From Podarcis liolepis (taxonomy: Eukaryota): DNA of 64,000 nt. The first letter of the stretch is position 1. Each line of letters starts with the position of its first letter. The translations under genes and the position numbers were made by a program. The notes beneath the pieces are model-generated. The model did not search any database and was not told the origin of the DNA. It saw nothing but the letters and a program-made list of their open reading frames with translations. Where the stretch lies: assembly GCA_965112155.1 (NCBI GenBank), contig OZ218100.1, one strand, 5' to 3'. This document shows, piece by piece, positions 17,297 through 64,000 of the stretch.

Positions 17297-20200
17297 TCAA
17301 ACATCAGGATCAATATTATCTGAACTTACCAGGTACTCTGCAGAGCTTTCAGTTACTTCTGAAGTCAACTTACTGTTAATCTCATATCTACTATCATTAT
17401 TTTCCACTTCATCTGTCTTGTTTAACTCCCTTGCAGATGCCTGCATCTCATTCTTGACAATGTACAATTCGTTGTCACCTGAGCCCCCCACTTCTATAGA
17501 TGTTTTCTGTAGATCTAGAAGGAAGGATTCCTTGCACTCAGTTGCTTGGCATTGTACATTTTTTTCATCGCTACTTAATGGTGGCATATCAGAAGTGCTG
17601 TCTCTGCTAACATCTGATTGCAATACCATGGAAATTGGAGGCATGTCCTGCATTTCGATGAGTGACATGCTTGGTCCAGCAGTGCTACCATTTGATGCAG
17701 GAGACACTATGTCTGGGACAATTACATCAGAAACCAAGGAGCAAAATTTATCCTCTTCCTCACCAGATGCTAACTCAACAAAAGCAATCATTTCTGGTTC
17801 AATTGTAGGTTGCTCAATGCCCAATTCTCTAGTTTTGTTGGACCCTAAAGAAATGGATGAAATGGTTTCTAACTTTGGACTCCCTACAATATCCTCATTC
17901 AGAATTTCAGATGGTAGGATGCCCAGATGTTCACGTTCTACCTCAATATCTCCCAGACTAAAATTAATGGTTTCTATTTCCAGGCTTGGTTTCAATCTAG
18001 GAGAATCATTAGGCTTTATTTCTCCAGACTTTGGAGAAGGGGTTGTAGAATGATCAAAGTTAAGTTCTGAATAAGTGCTATTCAAGTCCAAGTCACCAGC
18101 TGCTGAGGTATCCAAGATCCCAGTGTTCATGTCTGTGAATGTAAGGGCTACCTCTCCAAGATGCTCAACACTGATTTCTGTTGGAAGAGCACCTAGTGGT
18201 TCTTGAACCATCTCTGGCTGAACACTGGAAAAGTGAGTGCTATATGTTTCTACAGAACCTCTCTCTGCATTGTCATTTAAACTGAGATCAGATTCAGAAG
18301 GCCCACACCCATTATTTTTTATAAACATTAATTCTGCACTGGAATGAAGTTCATCATTTGCAGAAGACATACTGCCCAAAGTTTCAGCTCCCTTAGCTTG
18401 GGAATCCTTGGTTTCACAGCTTAATGGATGTTGACTAATTTCTTCATGTTTCCCTAGTGTACTGCTTATCATTGTTACGTTAACAAGGCACTCATTTGAC
18501 ATCTCTTCTGATACTGGAACACCAACTACATTACAATTTTCATCATCGTTTGGTTGAGAACTAGTCAACAATTTTTGTTCATTATTTATACAGGAATTAT
18601 TAAATTCATCTGCATTTAAAGGCTTCAATCCAGGATCTATGTTCTGGACCTCTGAAGTCTGCGGACTTTCACCACTGACTGCTGATTCAAGCCTATCAAG
18701 GCCCACATTGCCCCATTTTAGATCCAATAATGGTTCTTTATTGGAACTCTGATCTATCATTGCTATTTGAGGATTTTCTTTATTCACTTTTGAAGATGAG
18801 GCTGGCTCCCATGCCAGTGGACTCTGAACACGCGCCTCTGAAACCCACATAGAAATTGTTGATTCAGAGCTGTCATCAAGTTGCTTATCTTCTGTTATAG
18901 TATGGCCTTCTCCCTTAGGGGTATCAATTTGTGTTTCAAATAACCGAGACTCATGCTCCTGACTAACAACAAACTGATGTCCTGCAAATTCTGTATGTTC
19001 TCCTCCTACATCTCTCTCACCTAAACTTGTCAAATATGCTTTCATCTCCAAACTTTTACTGATCTTGTTTAATTTGGATTTATCCATTTTCTGCTGGTCT
19101 TGTAACTCGTCGCTGATGTCTGTGCCACTTGCCACACCAAGATCTTCAGCAGTAAAGTCAGTCTCATTTTCTGCCATTTGCATTATTAACTCTTTCTTAC
19201 CAGGAAATTTAAACTCTGCCATCTCATGCCCCAGAGGTTTATTGCTAACATCTTTTAGAAGAGCCTCTTGGTCTTCTGACAATTGCCGGGCTAATTCTTT
19301 ATCATCAGGAGATTTATACTCTGCTGCCCTGCACTCCAATGAATTCTGGCAAAATTCTTCCAAAGAAGTATTGCTTTCTGGCAACTGCATGGCTAATCCT
19401 GCTGTCTTAAATTCAGGTCGTTTCTTGCTAACATCGTGCTCTTTTAAAAGAGCAACATAGTCTTCTGACATATGTAAGCCTAATTCCTTATCATCTGGAA
19501 ATTTAAAGTCTGTTGTCTCAAAGTCTGCAGGTTTGTTGCTAAAATCATCCAAAGGAAAAACACTGCTTTCTGACAACTGCACTGTTAGTTCTTTATCGTC
19601 GGGAGATTTAGCATCTGTTGTCTTAAGGCCTGTGGGCTTCTTGGTAACATAATCCAAAGGAGGAACACTGCTCTCTGGCAACCGCATAGCAAATTCTGCT
19701 GTCTCCAGTTCTGATGACTTCTTATTATCATGTTCCTGTGACAACTGCATTGCTGATTCTTTATCATCAAGAGATTTAAACACTGCTTCCTCACACACAG
19801 ATGGATTCTTGTGAAGTTCTTCCAAAGGAGAAGCATTGCTTTCTGGCAACTGCATGGCTAATTCTGCAGTCTCCAGCTCTGATGGCTTCTTGCTAACATC
19901 TTCTAAGAGATCAACATGGTTTGCTGACAATTTCATTGCCAATTCTTTATCATCATCAGATTTAAAATCTGTTGTCACAAGATCAGCGGGTTTGTTGCTA
20001 AAGTCATCCAAAGAAGGAACACTGCTTTCTGGCAACTGCAGCACAAATTCTGCTGTCCCCAGCTCCGATGGCTTCTTAGTACCAGGTTTCAGGGATAACT
20101 GCATTGTTAATTCATCATCATCATGAGATTTAACCTCTGCTGCCTCACATACTGAGGAATTCTTGTAGAGTTCTTCCAAAGGAGAAGCATTGCTTTCTGG

Positions 20201-22027
20201 CAACTGCATAGCTAACTCTATTGTTTCAAGTTCAGATGGTTTCTTGCTAACATCTTCTAAAAGAGAAACACAATCTACTGACAACTGCACTGCTAATTCT
20301 TTATCATCATCAGATTTAAAATCTGTTGTCTCAGGGGCATTTACTGAAAAATCACTGGATTCATATTTTAATATTGACTGTGCATCTGACAGAGAGATTT
20401 TCTTTGATTCCCTCTCAACACCAGTTTTAAAGTTTTCTTCATAGGCTGCCAAAAGTTTCTCAACTTCAGCATCATCTGTTTCTGGGGTCTTGTCATTTAA
20501 AGGGATTTTGCTAACATCTGAGGTACTGTGTATGTTTTGTAGAGTTTCTTGTGTGACAGGCTTGCTGCTTGGTTTGGGATCTGCCAGCTGGTCTGCTTTT
20601 TTCTGTCTCTCAACAGGATTTGATTTAATTTTATCTGAAGTTGCAGAGTTCACAGACTTGCTATCAGCTGGACTCCTCCCACTGCGGTTGTAGAAAATAT
20701 CGTATAGATCTTTGGCATTACCTGCTGCTAGGCAAGAGTTCTTTTTCTCCAGTTTTTTAACATGGTCTCTGAAAATAGTTGGTGGTGGCAAAGGATGGGG
20801 ACACATGGGCACTGCCAGTATGTTTTTATCATCCTCAGACACACCAGGAGCCATGTCATCTGCAAGGATGGTTGCTTGTTTGGGTGGCACTGCGGGCGGA
20901 GGTGGGAATGCCATTGCTGGTGGTACTGGCAGTGCTACTGACAGCGGTGGTCCTGATGGCAGTGGAAGTAGAGGACGCCGTCGATTAGGTCTCTCAAAAA
21001 TACCCAATCTTGTAATTTGCTCCTTTATCACAGCAGCAAGTTCCCGTGCCTTTGCTTGTGCTTTTGCCACAACATTTGCTTGCTCCTGTGCCTTTGCTTC
21101 TTGTTCCTGTGCTATTGCTGCAGTCGCCTTTGCATGTTCCGCAGCTTTTGCATGTTCTACATCCCGGGACACAGCTTCATGATCAGGTTTCTCTGTTTGT
21201 TCTGGTACCGTTGCATTCTCCTGTGAACCCTTTAAAACTACTACTTCTCCCCCAAATGCTTTCGAAATAATATCAGGAGGTAGAACAAGTTCTGGATTAC
21301 CCTCTTTTACAACAGGAAGTGGCTTGGTGCTGGCACCAGAGGATTTTATGGACAAGAAAGTATTCAAAGGTGCAGGCTTGCTTACTGTTGCTGTTGCAGA
21401 CTTTCTGAGAACCATCATGGGGGCTGGTAAATTGGGCCTGATTTTTGCTTGTGATGATGTCGAAACAACTGGTGTCCAGGGACTAGTGTGTGGGATAACA
21501 GTTTTCCCAGACAATTTAATTGCAATTGGCTTTGAATTTGGTTTTCCAGATTGTGACTTGCTTTCTTTATCTTTACTTTCCTCAAAGCTCTCCTCCTTAG
21601 AGGCAGTTACATCTTTGCCTTGATTTTTTTCATCTCTCTCAGTCTTCCTCCAGCTGAACTTTCCAAAAGATGTCATTCTTGACTCCTTTGGTGGTTCCTC
21701 TTTTTCCCCTTCCTTCTTTTCAACCTCTTTGTCATCTTTTTTCAATTTAAGCTTAACCCCACATTTCTGGCCATTAGAAACTCCTTTCCTTTTATTAGAC
21801 TCATTTTCATTATCCCCATCTCCTAGTTCTTTGGAATTCTTTGGTTCCTCTTTACTTTTTCGTTCCTCTTTCCTTGCCACTTTCACTGCTTTTTCATCTC
21901 TCTCTTCTTTTTGCTTTTCACACAGCTTCCGTTTCAACCGGCGTTCTGTTTCTTGAATCACAGACAATCCTGCCTGACGGTCAATGTTCCTTCTCTCTTC
22001 ATAGAGTGGATTTTCATCCACATATTT
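17297..22027 (-). CDS. ZNF318: ZNF318 exon 10 (4731 nt to stop)
   Basis: cacag|KYVDENPLYEERRNIDRQAGL...; uninterrupted ORF to TGA at 17297. Confidence 0.92.
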   Translation of the reverse strand, partial: KYVDENPLYEERRNIDRQAGLSVIQETERRLKRKLCEKQKEERDEKAVKVARKEERKSKEEPKNSKELGDGDNENESNKRKGVSNGQKCGVKLKLKKDDKEVEKKEGEKEEPPKESRMTSFGKFSWRKTERDEKNQGKDVTASKEESFEESKDKESKSQSGKPNSKPIAIKLSGKTVIPHTSPWTPVVSTSSQAKIRPNLPAPMMVLRKSATATVSKPAPLNTFLSIKSSGASTKPLPVVKEGNPELVLPPDIISKAFGGEVVVLKGSQENATVPEQTEKPDHEAVSRDVEHAKAAEHAKATAAIAQEQEAKAQEQANVVAKAQAKARELAAVIKEQITRLGIFERPNRRRPLLPLPSGPPLSVALPVPPAMAFPPPPAVPPKQATILADDMAPGVSEDDKNILAVPMCPHPLPPPTIFRDHVKKLEKKNSCLAAGNAKDLYDIFYNRSGRSPADSKSVNSATSDKIKSNPVERQKKADQLADPKPSSKPVTQETLQNIHSTSDVSKIPLNDKTPETDDAEVEKLLAAYEENFKTGVERESKKISLSDAQSILKYESSDFSVNAPETTDFKSDDDKELAVQLSVDCVSLLEDVSKKPSELETIELAMQLPESNASPLEELYKNSSVCEAAEVKSHDDDELTMQLSLKPGTKKPSELGTAEFVLQLPESSVPSLDDFSNKPADLVTTDFKSDDDKELAMKLSANHVDLLEDVSKKPSELETAELAMQLPESNASPLEELHKNPSVCEEAVFKSLDDKESAMQLSQEHDNKKSSELETAEFAMRLPESSVPPLDYVTKKPTGLKTTDAKSPDDKELTVQLSESSVFPLDDFSNKPADFETTDFKFPDDKELGLHMSEDYVALLKEHDVSKKRPEFKTAGLAMQLPESNTSLEEFCQNSLECRAAEYKSPDDKELARQLSEDQEALLKDVSNKPLGHEMAEFKFPGKKELIMQMAENETDFTAEDLGVASGTDISDELQDQQKMDKSKLNKISKSLEMKAYLTSLGERDVGGEHTEFAGHQFVVSQEHESRLFETQIDTPKGEGHTITEDKQLDDSSESTISMWVSEARVQSPLAWEPASSSKVNKENPQIAMIDQSSNKEPLLDLKWGNVGLDRLESAVSGESPQTSEVQNIDPGLKPLNADEFNNSCINNEQKLLTSSQPNDDENCNVVGVPVSEEMSNECLVNVTMISSTLGKHEEISQHPLSCETKDSQAKGAETLGSMSSANDELHSSAELMFIKNNGCGPSESDLSLNDNAERGSVETYSTHFSSVQPEMVQEPLGALPTEISVEHLGEVALTFTDMNTGILDTSAAGDLDLNSTYSELNFDHSTTPSPKSGEIKPNDSPRLKPSLEIETINFSLGDIEVEREHLGILPSEILNEDIVGSPKLETISSISLGSNKTRELGIEQPTIEPEMIAFVELASGEEEDKFCSLVSDVIVPDIVSPASNGSTAGPSMSLIEMQDMPPISMVLQSDVSRDSTSDMPPLSSDEKNVQCQATECKESFLLDLQKTSIEVGGSGDNELYIVKNEMQASARELNKTDEVENNDSRYEINSKLTSEVTESSAEYLVSSDNIDPDV

Positions 22028-25000
22028 CTGTGAGGACAAGGAAAAGTTTCAGCGCTGTTACTTAATGTGAAATTTCAGTAGTGGTACAGGTTTGTCTTCC
22101 TTAATATTTTATCTTCCACATCACCACCCCACTACTAATTGTACTTGCTTAGAAATGCAAGAGGGAGGAGAAAGAGTGGTTTTCCTATACAATTATTATT
22201 CAGAATATCTACATTAGCAAAGCTCAGTCGATATAGCATGAGACACTCTCAGGTTCATAGGTTCGAGCCTCACTGGGCAAAAGATTCCTGCGTTGCAGGG
22301 GGCTGAACTAGATGGCCCTTGTTGTCCCTTCCAACTCTACACTTTTATATATAAAGTAATATGAGAAAAGCTTTATTCCAATGAGGTGACAAAACTGCAG
22401 CATAAAACAAATCTAGTACAGTAAAATTTCAGTAACACACAACCAAAGTGTCAACTGGGAACACAGTCCAACAATATTATCTACAGATAGGTAGCCGTGT
22501 TGGTCTGCCATAGTCAAAATAAAAAAAATCCTTCCAGTAGCACCTTAAAGACCAACTAAGTTAGTTCTTGGTATGAGCTTTCGTGTGCATGCACACTTCT
22601 TCAGATACACTGAAACAGAAGTTGCCAGATCCTTCTATATAGTGAGAAGGTGGGGAGGGGTATTACTCAGAAGGGTGGTGGGAATGGGAGATTGGCAGAT
22701 AGCTGAGATGAGCCTGTTGACGACTCTTAACGACTGTAATAGGTCTTACAGGAAAAGGCAAGGGGTGAGAAGGTGAGAAATGGCTTAGTCATGTATAATG
22801 ACATGTATACAGTCGTTAAGAGTCGTCAACAGGCTCATCTCAGCTATCTGCCAATCTCCCATTCCCACCACCCTTCTGAGTAATACCCCTCCCCTCCTTC
22901 TCACTATATAGAAGGATCTGGCAACTTCTGTTTCAGTGTATCTGAAGAAGTGTGCATGCACACGAAAGCTCATACCAAGAACTAACTTAGTTGGTCTTTA
23001 AGGTGCTACTGGAAGGAATTTTTTTATTTTGAATATTATCTACAGTGACTCAGAAAGATTAAAAGTCCTTCCCAGCTCTACCTGGAGATGCCAGGGACAG
23101 AATTCAGAAGCTTTTGCATATTAAGTATATGTCATGCCACTTAGCTATAGCTTCTCCTCCCTTTTACAACGGAAGACTTTAAGACTTCAATAAGATGACT
23201 TTTAAACATTTTTATTCAAAACAAATACTCCAGGTACCTTATATTTCTCGTTATGTGGATTATTTTTCACATGTTGTTCTGCTGATATCTGATCTCCAAA
23301 AAATTCTTGGCACAGCTGACAGTAATATCCAGTGACCGGGATTAGAAATTCAGAACCTGAAATGCCGCCCAAAACAATCAATTACAGAAATAAGATAATA
23401 AGACACACTACAGATTTGAACAACAAAAAATCCAAACAAAACACTAAAAGTACACAAAAAAGCCCTACAATTGAAATGAGCCAGTTAACCATGGATTCCA
23501 CTTGAAACAAACTGATCTGAAGAATGGAAACCTACACTTGTTCAACAATTCTTATCACTGTATACAGTGGTACCTCGCAGGACGAATGCCTCGCAAGACA
23601 AAAAACTTGCTAGACGAAAGGTTTTTCCGTTTTCGAGTTGCCTCGCAAGACAAATTTCCCTATGGGCTTGCTTCGCAAGACGAAAACGTCTTGCGACTTT
23701 GTTTCCTTTTTCTTAAAACTGTTAAAACAAAGGGTGCTTAGCTTGAACAGCTACAGTTGCGACTTGACTTCGAGGAGCAACTGTTAGCACGTGGTTTTGC
23801 AGCCTTTTCTCAGACTTTGCTCACTTTTGAAGCTTTTCCAAAACTTTTCCAGAACTTCTCTTGCATCCATTTGGTAAGTTAAACTTTTAAAACTTTTTTT
23901 GGGGGGGGGGTTGGATTTTGGGTTGGGGTGTTTGGGATTCAAGGACTTGGTGTTGTGGGGGGTTTGCGATAATCTGGGAGCTTGTGGGCCTTTTTTGGGA
24001 ATTTTTATGATTTTCTGTGACCATTGGGCCAGTTTGTTTTTTTTTCAATTTTTTTTTCCCTGAGTTTGAATTTCTGAGTGCTGGCTGGCTGGGGGAACAG
24101 CTGGAGAGGTTTCTGCAGGAATCTGGGAGCTTGTGGGGCTGTTTTGGGAATTTTTATGATTTTCTGTGACCATTGGGCCACTCTGCTGTTTTTTTAAAAA
24201 AATCTGGATTTGAATTTCTGTGTGGTGGGTGGCTGGGGGAACAGTTGAGGAGGGGGTTCTTCAGCAAGAAGCAAAGAGTGGAAGAGGAGCCTTCTTCGAG
24301 TGGTCCCCCAGAGTCTTAGAAAATGTACTGTACACTTTGTTGATTTTTAAATGTTTTTCTGTCATGTTTATAAAGTTAATTTATTTTCCCTTCAATTTTT
24401 GAACTGCTCTTTACAGTATGTGTGACTTTAAAGAGCAGTTAATAAACTCTTGTTGTACCAAATTTGGCTTTGTTTGGACTTTTTTTGACCATAGGAACGC
24501 ATTAATTGATTTTCAATGCATTCCTATGGGATTTCGTGATTCGCAAGACGAAAAATTCGCTAGACGACAAAACTTGCGGAACGAATTAATTTCGTCTTGC
24601 GGGGCACCACTGTACTTTGTTTATCATTCAAATACAAAATTATGTTGCATTTCAATCCCCCACTAATTCAGTAACAGAGCAATTCATGCAAACAAAATAG
24701 CTGTCAGACATTTACTTGGAAGTGACAGTCTTTTGTTGACACTAATAAGACAAAACATTTCTTGGCAGTAAGGTGAACAATCTGGCCCTCCTAAGCACCA
24801 CTTAAACTATAAAAAGCAACTTACCTTTAGCAGGAACTGGTATCTTGTCAATGCGTTTTGTAAGGTCTTGCTTTGTTTCAGTTTGAGTCTTCAAATCCCA
24901 AGGTCTGTTATATGGATCCAAGGTCTATTTACAATGACAAAAGAAATATTAAAATGAGGTCTGCTTTCCTGCCAAATGCTAAAAGCACTGAGGAAAAACA

Positions 25001-28000
25001 GAACTATACATACCAAGTGGGCATGTACTGAACTGTCTCACTCAAAATGAAGCTGGGATTCAAATAGTTACCCTCAGACATTGAATATGTAAGAAAATAT
25101 AAAAGTTGTTCTGTTTGATGTTTAAAATATTGGTATCTTAATTGTGGGTTCAAAAAAACAGAGGGCGTCTTATACATGAAAAAATATAGTAAGTGACAAA
25201 CCATACCAAAAAGATTAGGAATAAGAACTTATTCCAAACTATTTTCTAAAAGGACAGTTGATTGGCATGTAGTTCTTTGCTTTCTACAAAACATTATTTT
25301 ACAACTTGGAAGAGCAAATTAAAACTACTTAATGAAAACCTGATAGCACACACCTGCCTGTGCTTCTTATTATGCATATGTGTGAAGAAATCAAACATGG
25401 TCCCACAGATGGTATTGCAGTCCTTGCACCAGTGGTTTCCTGTGTCATAATAGTCATAAATATTGGTTTCCTGGGAATGCTGTTTGGATGGCTGAAAATG
25501 AGGTTCTGTAGACTTGGGGCTCCTGCACCCAGGTTTGTCATTAGTTTTTAAATCCTAAATTGGAAAAAAATGAAATATTACTAACTGTGGAATGACAGCC
25601 AGTGCCTCAAAACTAGCCTTTAGTAGAAACCACACAAAATATACATAGATGTAACTATATATCACCTGCTTGTCAATGCCCAGGATAATTCCACCATTTC
25701 AGTGAGCAGGCACTGCCGACTCAGATGTTGTTCAGTCAACAGGAAAGAACTTCCAACGAGACTCAAGCATGTTGCCAAGGTTGCAGGTACTAAGCAATCA
25801 AGGGATGACATCCCATGGAGTACACGGTGCATGTGTGCAGTATGCATACTTAAGTACAAAATACTTAAGTACAAAATACCCAGCAACTCCCAATGAATTT
25901 GTAAATTCTCAAAAACACTTAAAAGTCTTTGAAAAAGCCAGGCACTTTGCATACTCTCTCTATATGAAACGAAATAAAACAAACACACACTTCTTCAGAT
26001 ACACGAAAGCTCATACCAATAACCAACCTAGTTGGGTCTCTAAGGTGCTACTGGAAGGAATTTATTTATTTATTTATTTTGTTTTGTTTCGACTATGGCA
26101 GACCAACACGGCTACCTACCTGCAACTACTTTATATGATGCACTCTATATTGTGGCAAAACACAAGTGCTCAGGTTATAAGGTTCTAAGCTGTCAATGAA
26201 GAAAGCTTGCAGCAGAAGAATCTGGTCTGTCTCAAATCTTGAATTACTGACTCTGCTATTGCATTTAACATACATGAGAAATGGTGTCTATTATGTCATG
26301 CTGTTTGACTCTTTGATCCCCTAGAGTATAATATACGTGATAAAACTATTTAAAAGTCCACATCCCTAGGAAAGCCTCCCTAAACGAGTTGTAAAGAGTT
26401 GCAGGGGAAACATAAATTGCTCTTCCAACCTATTGTAAGAACTGACTGGATCACGAGACCAGAGTACCAACATAAGACCCTTGTATTCCAATCAATATAT
26501 TGTAGTTTTTTCTTCCAAAAATGTTTGTCAGTCAGTGAAGAAAAGCATTATGTTTAATGTTGTGTGCTCATATCCTCTCGCTCCCTTCTTTGAGAATCAT
26601 AAAGAATGTTTTGGCACTATATAGACATCCCCCTCCTCTTCCACTGATCTGCTTGCTCCCACAAATAATGGGCTGTGAGCTCTAACAACTGATTTGTCTT
26701 TATATGATTATAAGAGCAGCTATGCTGGGATGAAGCCCATCTAGTCTAGCATTCTGTCTGTGGGAAGCCTACAAGCAGGGTCTAGTCGGCAAAGCAGACT
26801 TAAGGAGATCACATATCCAGTGTTTTCCATAGTGTTTCACTTTCAGAAGAGCTAGGAAATTTCTCCCTCATAGTTTCCAAGTTAATGAGTAGCAGAAGGG
26901 AAAATCCATCCTGATGCAAGCAGGCTGTTAGGTTTTGGAAGGCAACCCAAATTAGAATTGCATTCCCACTCAATTTTCTTGGGGGTTTTCCTGTCATTTT
27001 TGCAGAGACTGTGTCACTCCACACTTGTGATCAAGAAGAAAAAACATGCATGTCTCCTTCCCGAATAATTATCAGATTCTTTTCATCAAACCAGAAAATG
27101 CCACAATGATTTCTTCCCTTTTTAAAATGTTTATTAAAGAAAATAAGGCTATTGCAGGAGCATAAAAACCTGCCTGAGGTAGAGAATTTCAAGTCAAAAG
27201 GTAATCATAGCAAGTCAAAAGGTAATCATAGCATTATTTAAGACAGAAAAAAACAGGAATGAATCATATTCAGCACCACATAGACTTCTCTCTTTATGCA
27301 CTTCCTCAGGCTGAAGGGGAGAAAAAAAATCAACATTATATTATGGGTGTTGTGTTTTTAGCAATTTCTATTAATTCCATTTATGTAAGTTTTTCAAAAC
27401 TGGACCACACAGAAAGCTATTTGAAATTAAAATTACAAACGCCATGAAATAATCAACATTCATGGTCCTTCAGAAACTACCTGATAACTTGTGCATAAAC
27501 ATTCTGGTTTTTTTCTACTCTGCAGAATGTCATCAGATTATTCTAACACCAGCCACCTCTTAAAATCATTCCCTCCACTCCTGGACCAGTGGAAAGGATT
27601 CAGGAAAGACTATTACCTCCCTGTCTTAGGCCTTTCTATCACCAACTTCCCTGTGGGAAGGATCTTGATTATTTTTTCTATGTTGATATTGTTTATTGTA
27701 TTTTTTATGAATTTAATGTTACTTTTAAGTCACATGGTAAGAATGTGTGACCCCCAAAGTCAGGATACTACTAATAAATAAAAATTATGTCAAACACAAG
27801 TGACAGCTTAACAAAGTTTGAACTTAATATGTAAGAAGAGGGTGGCAAGAAATTCTTCCAAACACCCTGTTTTTACCAAAAGTGAGAACATCAGTTAGAA
27901 TCAGCACTTAGAATTTTTACCTTGACTGAGTTGGAAGTTCTCTCCTGACCTTTTGCATTTTCTGACTTGTTTTTTTCTGATGAGTCCTTATTTTCTGAAG

Positions 28001-44327: not shown

Positions 44328-62869
<18,542 letters not shown>

Positions 62870-62922
62870 TGAAGTGCTTCAGGAAGTATTAATTAGTATC
62901 AGTGCTTGGATTATGGGAGGAA

Positions 62923-64000
62923 AGAGAGCGTTGGTGGCAGAAAACTCACTCCGAATCTGACCGGACACAGGTTAGAGCTCAACGTCGAGCCTACCAAGTG
63001 GCGATAGCGACGGTGAAGAAGACTTTCTTCACCGCCTCTATTGCATCTGCAGAAAATAGTAGCAGGAGACTCTTTCAGGTGGTTCGCAATTTAACGGAAC
63101 CACCTTTACCACCGGGACCTTGTAAAGACCCCAAGATCTCCTGCAATGATTTTGCTAAGTTTTTTGCAGATAAAATCACTCATATTCGGAAGGAGCTAGA
63201 CACCACCGTGGGAGCAGGGCCGGGGCGGGAGAGTGCCAGAGCTCTGTCTGGTCAAGTTGCATGGAATCAATTTCAATCCGTTACCCCCGAGGATGTGGAC
63301 AGGCTGCTTGGACGCGTGAAACCAACCACCTGTCTCTTTGATCCTTACCCATCCTGGCTAATAAAAGCAAGCCGGGAAGGGCTGGGCGATGGGCTCTGCG
63401 GGGTGGTGAATGCTTCCCTCTGTGAGGGAACATTCCCAGATCCGCTGAAAGAGGCGGTCATTAAACCGCTTCTTAAAAAAACATCTTTAGACCCGGCCAG
63501 TATGGCCAACTATCGCCCAGTCTCAAATCTTCCATTCTTGGGCAAGGTGATTGAGCGCGTGGTTGCTGAACAACTCCAGGCACGCGTGGAGGATGCGGAC
63601 CATTTGGATCCCTTCCAATCGGGATTCAGGCCTCACCATGGGACTGAAACTGCCTTGGTCGCGCTGGTTGATGACCTCCGGCGAGCTAGGGACAAAGGTG
63701 AGAGTTGTTTCCTGGTTCTGCTGGATCTCTCAGCGGCCTTTGATACAATCGACCATAACATCCTTCTGGACCGTCTAGAGGGGCTGGGAGCTGGGGGCAC
63801 TGTTATACAGTGGTTTCGCTCCTTCCTCCTGGGCCGTGTTCAGAAAGTGGTGGTGGGGGATGAGTGTTCAGACCCCTGGGCCCTCACTTGTGGGGGTGCC
63901 TCAGGGTTCCGTCCTCTCCCCCATGCTATTTAACATCTATATGAAGCCGCTGGGAGAGATCATCAGGGGGTTTGGACTGGGTGTCCATCAATATGCAGAT
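62923..64000 (+). mobile_element. Young 5'-truncated L2-clade LINE, ORF2 (RT), in the last ABCC10 intron; runs off the window
   Basis: ANYRPVSNLPFLGKVIERVV...DPFQSGFRPHHGTETAL...LLDLSAAFDTIDH; after a +1 frameshift at ~63895 it continues [17 protein letters not shown]...HQYAD. Confidence 0.92.

What the first reader, a model, noticed from the sequence alone, without database searches (positions are those of the whole stretch)
22571..22975. Mirror-image pair of minimal hammerhead ribozymes, one in sense within the ZNF318 pre-mRNA and paired with its own antisense copy
Seen: both arms contain GUAU-CUGAAGA-A-GUGUGC-AU-GCACAC-GAAA-GC-UC/AUAC: intact CUGANGA and GAAA core, stem I GUAU/AUAC, 6-bp stem II, and a minimal stem III made of the palindrome AGCU. 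Established: Penelope repeats carry minimal type I hammerheads thought to cleave as dimers via a palindromic stem III. Whichever strand is transcribed, the RNA contains the antisense copy first and then one ribozyme. Inference: the inverted arm acts as a built-in lock that protects the host transcript from self-cleavage; editing or unwinding of the stem, or trans-dimerisation with other Penelope RNAs, could release cleavage between zinc finger 2 and the last exon.
Basis: partly seen in the sequence, partly recalled or inferred. Interest (0 to 1): 0.7.

Follow-up and report, generated by a model that had tools for sequence, protein, structure and literature searches.

The report
Mirror Penelope stub in lizard intron
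The mirror-image ribozyme pair is real, but it is the usual back-to-back stub left by a recent jumping-gene insertion that close relatives lack; its ribozyme is predicted to be trapped in a hairpin and is likely harmless debris rather than a switch for the host gene.

Summary
Observation confirmed; the lock or switch reading is mostly not supported. The two hammerheads lie in a 545-nt insertion (22487-23031) with a 14-nt target-site duplication, in the last intron of ZNF318 (98% to Podarcis muralis). It consists of two 5'-truncated ends of a young Penelope-like retroelement joined head to head, with a tail on one arm, the published layout for this class. The exact ribozyme occurs 10,551 times in the genome, and 46 of 86 sampled insertions are mirrors. 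Contigs of two related organisms show a clean empty site, so this is no conserved control element. The RNA is predicted to fold into a ~224-bp hairpin that traps the ribozyme, but published single copies do not cut unaided anyway. Family RNA reads from a relative show likely A-to-I editing at core A14 and A15.1, which would disable rather than release cleavage. Side results: 60% of intact-ribozyme copies begin within 9 nt of the core, below a TATA-like box; there is no excess at the cut site; arm geometry favours two separately primed cDNAs. The scan reported such stubs before, in sharks and in this genome.

The parts
22473..22486 (.). Target-site duplication, left copy (14 nt)
   Evidence: a single copy at the empty site in runs X4 and X5
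22487..23031 (.). Whole insertion, 545 nt: two head-to-head 5'-truncated ends of a Penelope-like element
   Evidence: 92.7-93.9% identical to the ends of the intact element in L112
22487..22514 (-). One-sided tail (about 28 nt); it holds the first codons of the element's ORF (ATG at 22511-22509)
   Evidence: absent from the other arm; matches the N-terminus of the L112 ORF; on one arm only in 45 of 46 sampled mirrors
22487..22804 (-). Long, tailed arm, in sense with ZNF318: last codons and stop of the GIY-YIG domain, 3' UTR/pLTR, hammerhead, tail
22571..22608 (-). Minimal type I hammerhead motif, sense in the ZNF318 pre-mRNA; predicted cut at 22575/22574
   Evidence: 10,551 exact copies of its 37-nt core region in the genome
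22635..22641 (-). TATA-like box of the long arm; inferred RNA start near 22610
   Evidence: sequence; copies pile up with their 5' end 31 nt below it; function not tested
22739..22807 (-). Unpaired middle: the extra 5' reach of the long arm plus a few filler bases at the joint; not a separate spacer
22808..23031 (+). Short, tailless arm; antisense in the ZNF318 pre-mRNA and transcribed first
22905..22911 (+). TATA-like box of the short arm; inferred RNA start near 22936, antisense to ZNF318
   Evidence: sequence; function not tested
22938..22975 (+). Second, identical hammerhead motif; predicted cut at 22971/22972; core A14 = 22966, A15.1 = 22967
   Evidence: family RNA reads carry A>G at these places
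23032..23045 (.). Target-site duplication, right copy (14 nt)
23238..23356 (-). ZNF318 exon with the second C2H2 finger, upstream of the host intron
22028..23237 (-). Host intron (GT..AG, 1210 nt; 651 without the insertion and one duplication copy); the last exon starts at 22027
   Evidence: the joined exons give the same protein junction as P0002

Best explanation
This is a recent, lineage-restricted, dead insertion of two truncated ends of a Penelope-like retrotransposon joined head to head, likely made when both nicked ends of the target primed separate cDNAs; in the ZNF318 pre-mRNA it is predicted to form a long hairpin that is spliced out with the intron and likely edited, so the ribozyme would stay inactive as a by-product and not as a host switch. 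Shown: the anatomy, the duplication, the parent ORF, the copy numbers and the empty sites. Inferred: (1) the element's endonuclease nicks both strands 12-14 nt apart; (2) reverse transcription starts at the two sites that bracket the tail, one per nick, on RNA not yet cut by the ribozyme; (3) the two cDNAs stop early, most often at the RNA's start just above the ribozyme, and are joined at their upstream ends; (4) in host RNA the antisense arm is made first and captures the ribozyme strand as it emerges.
For: TSD of 14 nt, one-sided tail and head-to-head arms, the layout described in PMC3846280 and PMC8557442. The arms are 92.7-93.9% identical to the ends of a 921-aa RVT_1 + GIY-YIG frame elsewhere in the genome. 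10,551 exact ribozyme copies against 0 for the reversed control. In the first 4.9 Mb of contig C1, 46 of 86 insertions are head-to-head mirrors and 40 single; 45 of 46 have the tail on one arm; 42 of 45 scored have a 9-16-nt duplication. Empty site: single contigs of X4 and X5 join both flanks over one copy of the 14-mer. The tailless arm reaches further 5' in 25 of 45 one-tailed mirrors, which fold-back of a single cDNA cannot give; the Anolis protein nicks and extends both strands from two start sites around the tail (PMC11167929). Exact counts fall only 2.3% across the scissile bond (neighbouring steps 1.6% and 2.9%) but 31% and 41% over the two 3-nt steps above the ribozyme. Every ribozyme base is paired as it emerges in prefix folds. 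Likely editing: A>G in 139 of 416 versus 0 of 328 reads by mate direction at 23000.
Against: No cleavage, splicing or expression was measured at this locus: the one RNA run laid is from organism H, where the site looks empty, and it had 1 read on the zinc-finger exon. Presence outside this assembly rests on one contig of X2 that enters the element by only 22 nt, below the tool's 31-nt bar; X1 has a hole there. The sample is one chromosome end and was picked by exact patterns, which catch mirrors twice, so 46 of 86 overstates their share. The editing signal lacks DNA of the same individual, could come from a few expressed loci, and no matching T>C excess was listed for the other mate direction at 5% or more. 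The 5' pile-up also sits on an AG that resembles a splice acceptor; no shared upstream exon was seen in the 46 junctions printed, but no RNA start was mapped.
Confidence: 0.9

Rival explanations
1. One reading: the inverted arm is a lock on an otherwise active ribozyme, and editing, unwinding or trans-dimerisation releases cleavage of ZNF318 pre-mRNA before the last exon.
For: The core is intact and in sense with the gene, and pairing with the upstream arm is predicted. The Anolis ribozyme does cut when the element's protein is present (PMC11167929), and the genome holds very young open frames of that protein family.
Against: Empty site in organisms C and D and probably H; the mirror form is routine; a single minimal hammerhead showed no cleavage and dimers little (PMC4209133); the dimer helix is -2.5 against -70.5 kcal/mol for the antisense duplex; likely editing falls on A14, A15.1 and stem I, and A14G abolishes cleavage (PMC4889925).
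Confidence: 0.03
2. Passive tolerance filter: mirrors are not built as locks, but solo sense copies in introns are removed by selection more often than self-pairing ones, so the hairpin does protect hosts at the population level.
For: Pairing is predicted to be complete and co-transcriptional; the family is young and abundant; a preprint reports depletion of related retrozymes from introns (10.64898/2026.07.22.740005, abstract and passages).
Against: Not tested: no gene annotation was available. Single copies are reported as nearly inactive, so there may be little to protect against, and long double-stranded RNA carries costs of its own (general knowledge).
Confidence: 0.1
3. Origin by fold-back self-priming: one cDNA turns on itself and copies back, giving the mirror.
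For: In this copy and in 14 of 45 sampled mirrors the tailed arm is the longer, as fold-back requires; a short palindrome and filler sit at the joint; self-priming was proposed in PMC3846280.
Against: In 25 of 45 the tailless arm reaches further upstream than the tailed arm, so it cannot be a copy of it, and a tailless first strand cannot supply a tail. BLAST ends inside the palindromic stem II are uncertain by up to 14 nt.
Confidence: 0.15
4. Mild effect on ZNF318 by another route: the arms' own TATA-like promoters fire (one antisense to the gene), or the AG just above the ribozyme acts as a cryptic splice acceptor, or the hairpin alters splicing of a short intron.
For: Unlike most stubs, both arms reach past the TATA-like box; the insertion nearly doubles the intron; a pyrimidine-rich run ending in AG precedes the ribozyme on the sense strand.
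Against: No RNA from a carrier was available; the AG is predicted to be buried in the duplex; both true splice sites lie more than 190 nt away and are intact.
Confidence: 0.08

Closest known systems
Insertion units of endonuclease-positive Penelope-like elements with inverted pLTR, one-sided tail and TSD (Adineta Pen2a_Av, PMC3846280; general scheme PMC8557442; Drosophila virilis, PMC2377424)
   Same: 5'-truncated copy with an inverted truncated copy at its 5' end, head to head; tail on one arm that runs into the first codons of the ORF; TSD; TATA-like box in the pLTR.
   Different: No ORF between the arms here beyond its last codons; the tail is about 28 nt and the TSD 14 nt (published examples 30-40 nt and 8-10 nt).
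Minimal hammerheads (min-HHR) of metazoan PLEs (Cervera and De la Pena 2014, PMC4209133)
   Same: CUGANGA and GAAA core, extra base between 9 and 10.1, G10.1-C11.1 pair, 4-bp helix I, palindromic remnant of helix III; that paper already notes dual motifs 100-700 bp apart on opposite strands and motifs in turtle and snakes.
   Different: Helix II is predicted at 5 bp plus a 4-nt loop (7-8 bp in Schistosoma); this lizard family is far more uniform (10,551 exact copies); its activity is untested.
Poseidon element PAc of Anolis carolinensis (Frangieh et al. 2024, PMC11167929)
   Same: Lizard PLE with a pLTR hammerhead, two reverse-transcription starts bracketing the tail, both strands nicked and extended, and cleavage not needed for insertion; this matches the lack of copies starting at the cut site.
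   Different: PAc is of the Poseidon clade with its ORF starting in stem II; here the long frame starts in the tail, and the RT-EN linker carries a Cys/His motif as described for Neptune and Nematis elements (by inspection; no tree built).
Hyper-edited repeats: lizard Penelope and frog Harbinger palindromes (Porath et al. 2017, PMC5625713)
   Same: Self-pairing repeat RNA edited by ADAR; lizard Penelope is named there as massively edited (over 40,000 sites); G is depleted upstream of edited sites, as seen here.
   Different: The passages seen do not link the editing to mirror insertions or to the ribozyme core.
Conserved host-gene intronic hammerheads of amniotes (HH9/HH10; recalled, not looked up)
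   Same: A hammerhead in sense within an intron of a protein-coding gene.
   Different: Those are recalled as single-copy, deeply conserved and able to fold alone; this one is one of thousands and absent from close relatives.

Membership tests
EN+ Penelope-like element insertion | [quoted passage not shown] | tested here: met
   arms 92.7-93.9% identical to the ends of L112, whose 921-aa frame hits RVT_1 (E 3e-12) and GIY-YIG (E 3e-05); a closer copy has GIY-YIG just upstream
EN+ Penelope-like element insertion | 5' truncation with an inverted truncated copy, head to head | tested here: met
   46 of 86 sampled insertions alike, none tail to tail within 600 nt; 1 plus-minus neighbour pair in each list of 100 hits
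EN+ Penelope-like element insertion | Tail of about 30-40 nt at one end only | tested here: met
   about 28 nt plus 5 nt shared with the TSD, on the minus-strand arm only
EN+ Penelope-like element insertion | Target-site duplication | tested here: met
   14 nt; one copy at the empty site in X4 and X5
Neptune clade of PLEs | [quoted passage not shown] | tested here: inconclusive
   a Cys/His-rich motif precedes the GIY-YIG domain (feature from PMC8557442); no tree with named elements was built
Minimal type I hammerhead of PLEs | Core CUGANGA, GAAA and a UH cleavage site | tested here: met
Minimal type I hammerhead of PLEs | Extra base 9/10.1, G10.1-C11.1 pair, short helix I, palindromic helix III remnant | tested here: met
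   sequence against the features listed in PMC4209133
Minimal type I hammerhead of PLEs | Structure supported by covariation | tested here: inconclusive
   66 fetched copies are identical and the listed variants are mostly single changes; the family is too young; the 38-mer alone folds no better than shuffles (z -0.44)
Minimal type I hammerhead of PLEs | Self-cleavage as a dimer or with protein help | not testable with these tools
   indirect only: no excess of genomic copies starting at the cut site
Rfam hammerhead families | Match to a covariance model | tested here: not met
   no hammerhead family at E<=10 in 21500-24000
Conserved host-regulatory ribozyme or RNA switch | Present at the orthologous site in relatives | tested here: not met
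   clean empty site in organisms C and D, likely in H; weak sign of presence in B; A not covered

The most novel reading that the evidence does not exclude
Penelope-like elements disarm their own ribozymes on landing: two-ended priming on uncut RNA writes an antisense copy ahead of the ribozyme in about half of all insertions, ADAR then converts core A14 and A15.1 to inosine, and this lets thousands of self-cleaving motifs sit in sense inside lizard introns where solo copies are selected against.
Probability: 0.1. Interest if true: 0.55.

Novelty: new member of a known kind. Interest (0 to 1): 0.18.

Why it matters
As a single locus it matters little: it is one of an estimated ~1,500 mirrors with two letter-perfect ribozymes (14 pairs among the first 100 of 10,551 hits; extrapolated from 5.7 Mb). 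The family is more useful than the locus. More than ten thousand near-identical copies record how Penelope-like elements insert, a cycle that PMC8557442 and PMC11167929 call unresolved. The counts suggest that the template RNA starts right at the ribozyme, is copied uncut, and gives two separately primed cDNAs. They also offer a source for the heavy editing of lizard Penelope RNA already reported. The empty and filled sites make a simple lineage marker.

Tried and rejected
Rfam scan: no hammerhead hit. ESM Atlas on a ZNF318 exon: only hits under 0.9, not used; the gene was named instead. One exploratory pattern search gave 0 matches and was not used. Run search: no RNA holder listed. The raw RNA run X23 gave 1 read on the zinc-finger exon, so nothing on splicing or RNA ends at this locus. 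X1 has no cover over 22362-22449, so its state is unknown. Lunse et al. (PMC5785218) is not held; its dimer result is known to me only through passages of the review PMC6765202. Assembly artefact rejected: the arms differ at 2 places, are asymmetric, carry a TSD, and the form recurs. Separate MITE-like family rejected: arm lengths and joints vary from copy to copy. Spliced-RNA origin of the 5' pile-up: not favoured, since no common upstream exon appears in the 46 junctions printed, but not excluded. The test for orientation bias in introns could not be run without annotation. Six literature searches showed no paper on this lizard family's ribozyme or on editing of its core; most subscription papers, Repbase/Dfam entries and all supplements were not seen, so absence from print is not established.

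Full report
Observation. They lie in arms of 229 nt at 99% complementarity with 69 nt between them. A 14-nt direct repeat at 22473-22486 and 23032-23045 bounds a 545-nt insertion. The minus-strand arm has about 28 extra nt at its 3' end that the other arm lacks. The last exon's first 300 residues match ZNF318 proteins, best Podarcis muralis at 98% (165 hits at E<=1e-10, 120 listed). Aligning that protein to the window places the insertion in the GT-AG intron 23237-22028, after the exon with a zf-C2H2_jaz finger. Rfam gave no hammerhead match. The 38-nt motif alone folds at -6.8 kcal/mol, no better than shuffles, with a 5-bp stem II.

What it is. Longer natural copies continue upstream into a GIY-YIG domain. 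A protein search of the genome found 6,216 candidates, of which 150 were scored, with open frames up to 921 aa. That frame (L112) has RVT_1 and GIY-YIG domains, sits in a tandem-plus-inverted unit whose repeats are 100% identical, and its ends match the window's arms at 92.7-93.9%. The long arm starts at the last codons of this ORF, and the tail holds its first codons. So both arms are truncated ends of a young Penelope-like element, probably of the Neptune type by its linker motif (inspection only). Inverted pLTR, one-sided tail and TSD are the published layout (PMC3846280 and PMC8557442, passages seen; PMC2377424, passages). Dual minimal hammerheads 100-700 bp apart on opposite strands were noted in 2014 (PMC4209133, parts 1-2 of 4 read).

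How common. The 37-nt ribozyme stretch occurs exactly 10,551 times, the reversed control 0 times; a 39-nt stretch just downstream occurs 13,748 times. I fetched 100 loci from the first 4.9 Mb of contig C1. Keeping arms of at least 85% identity that reach the 3' part gave 86 insertions: 46 head-to-head mirrors and 40 single. Of the 46, 45 have the tail on one arm, 20 span the ribozyme on both arms, and 42 of 45 scored have a 9-16-nt duplication. Mirrors are caught twice by this sampling, so their share is overstated. Among the first 100 listed hits, minus-plus neighbours number 31 (one search list, within 2 kb) and 14 (one search list, within 1 kb) against 1 plus-minus pair in each; the latter extrapolates to about 1,500 mirrors with two perfect ribozymes.

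Age. Both flanks were laid against public runs (5 contig runs and 1 RNA run of the 24 listed). One contig each from organisms C (X4) and D (X5) aligns to the left flank up to 22486 and to the right flank from 23032, overlapping by exactly 14 letters: a clean empty site. A contig from organism H starts matching at 23032 only, so the site is likely empty there. One contig from organism B runs 22 nt into the element, weak evidence of presence, and organism A has a hole. With about 99% identical flanks in these relatives and 2 differences between the arms, the insertion is recent and ZNF318 does without it elsewhere.

Does the arm lock the ribozyme? In read-through RNA, by prediction, yes: the insert folds at -447.9 kcal/mol, and each ribozyme base pairs with the upstream arm as it emerges. 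But there is little to lock. A single minimal hammerhead showed no cleavage and dimers little (PMC4209133). The Anolis ribozyme cut only with the element's protein, was not needed for insertion, and no RNA-seq reads ended at its site (PMC11167929, parts 1-2 of 4 read). The dimer helix is worth -2.5 kcal/mol against -70.5 for the antisense duplex. Editing would not free it. In RNA run X23 (organism H, 12% of the run read, family-level reads) A>G appears at 23000 in 139 of 416 reads of one mate direction and 0 of 328 of the other, and at 23001 in 80 of 416 versus 0 of 339, while DNA contigs show under 0.2%. A 57-read loose end differs from 22956-22985 at six places, all A>G, none after a G or a C, including A14 and A15.1. 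This fits ADAR (G depleted upstream; lizard Penelope is already reported as massively edited, PMC5625713, passages), and A14G abolishes cleavage (PMC4889925, passages). Limits: no DNA from the same animal, possibly few source loci, and no T>C counterpart listed.

What the copies say about the mechanism. Extending the exact pattern 3 nt at a time loses 2.9%, 1.6% and 2.3% of copies, the last step crossing the scissile bond (13,748, 13,345, 13,132, 12,831), so templates do not start at the cut. Above the ribozyme the losses are 31% and 41% (10,551, 7,257, 4,267): 60% of intact-ribozyme copies begin within 9 nt of the core. In the sample, 39 of 119 young arms begin 3-8 nt above it, with the mode at 6, which is 31 nt below a TATA-like box. 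I infer that this is the RNA start and that uncut RNA is the template; a splice-acceptor reading is not excluded. In 25 of 45 one-tailed mirrors the tailless arm reaches further upstream, in 14 the tailed arm, and 6 are level. A single cDNA folding back cannot explain the 25, whereas two cDNAs primed from the two nicks can, in line with both-strand nicking and two start sites in vitro (PMC11167929). This copy belongs to the 14 and fits either route. Both of its arms keep the TATA-like box, so internally started RNAs would carry an unpaired ribozyme; this is untested.

Verdict. Real, ordinary, and of a known kind. Other agents of this scan reached the same reading for sharks and for other pieces of this genome; these notes are not independent support. 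The counts on template ends, arm geometry and core editing are modest additions that I did not find in six searches of the open library, with supplements and subscription papers unseen. Interest 0.18.

Noticed in passing
window 25986-26116: A second, older stub of the same family in another ZNF318 intron: a tailed plus-strand arm cut inside stem II, with a 15-nt inverted piece holding the 5' half of the ribozyme; the ribozyme is broken.
   Followed up: partly
window 23563-24614: A MITE-like element with 24-nt terminal inverted repeats and internal repeats in the intron upstream of the zinc-finger exon; the X5 contig stops matching at 23544, so it may be absent in organism D.
   Followed up: no
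window 22229-22340: A short high-copy repeat, SINE-like by eye, in the same intron; very deep cover in all four runs.
   Followed up: no
window 19400-20300 (inside the last exon, minus strand): Degenerate coding repeats with 168-nt (56-aa) spacing in the 1576-aa last exon; squamate ZNF318 proteins listed are often longer than those of birds and turtles.
   Followed up: no
window 22482-22486: The five bases of the left duplication next to the tail equal the next five bases of the family's tail in other copies, a possible priming microhomology.
   Followed up: no
L112 (G000:C8:51195000-51204500): A full unit of a sister subfamily: a 921-aa RT + GIY-YIG frame, a truncated tandem copy and an inverted copy, with repeats 100% identical, so very recent.
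   Followed up: partly
window 44963-60435: An ABC transporter gene on the plus strand (ABC_membrane), head to head with ZNF318; likely ABCC10 by recalled synteny, not tested.
   Followed up: partly
window 62893-63933: A 346-aa frame resembling a non-LTR retrotransposon reverse transcriptase fragment, by eye.
   Followed up: no
RNA run X23 laid on window 22985-23003: A few reads (3 each at two joints) switch strand inside the element, as very short transcribed mirrors or library artefacts would give.
   Followed up: no
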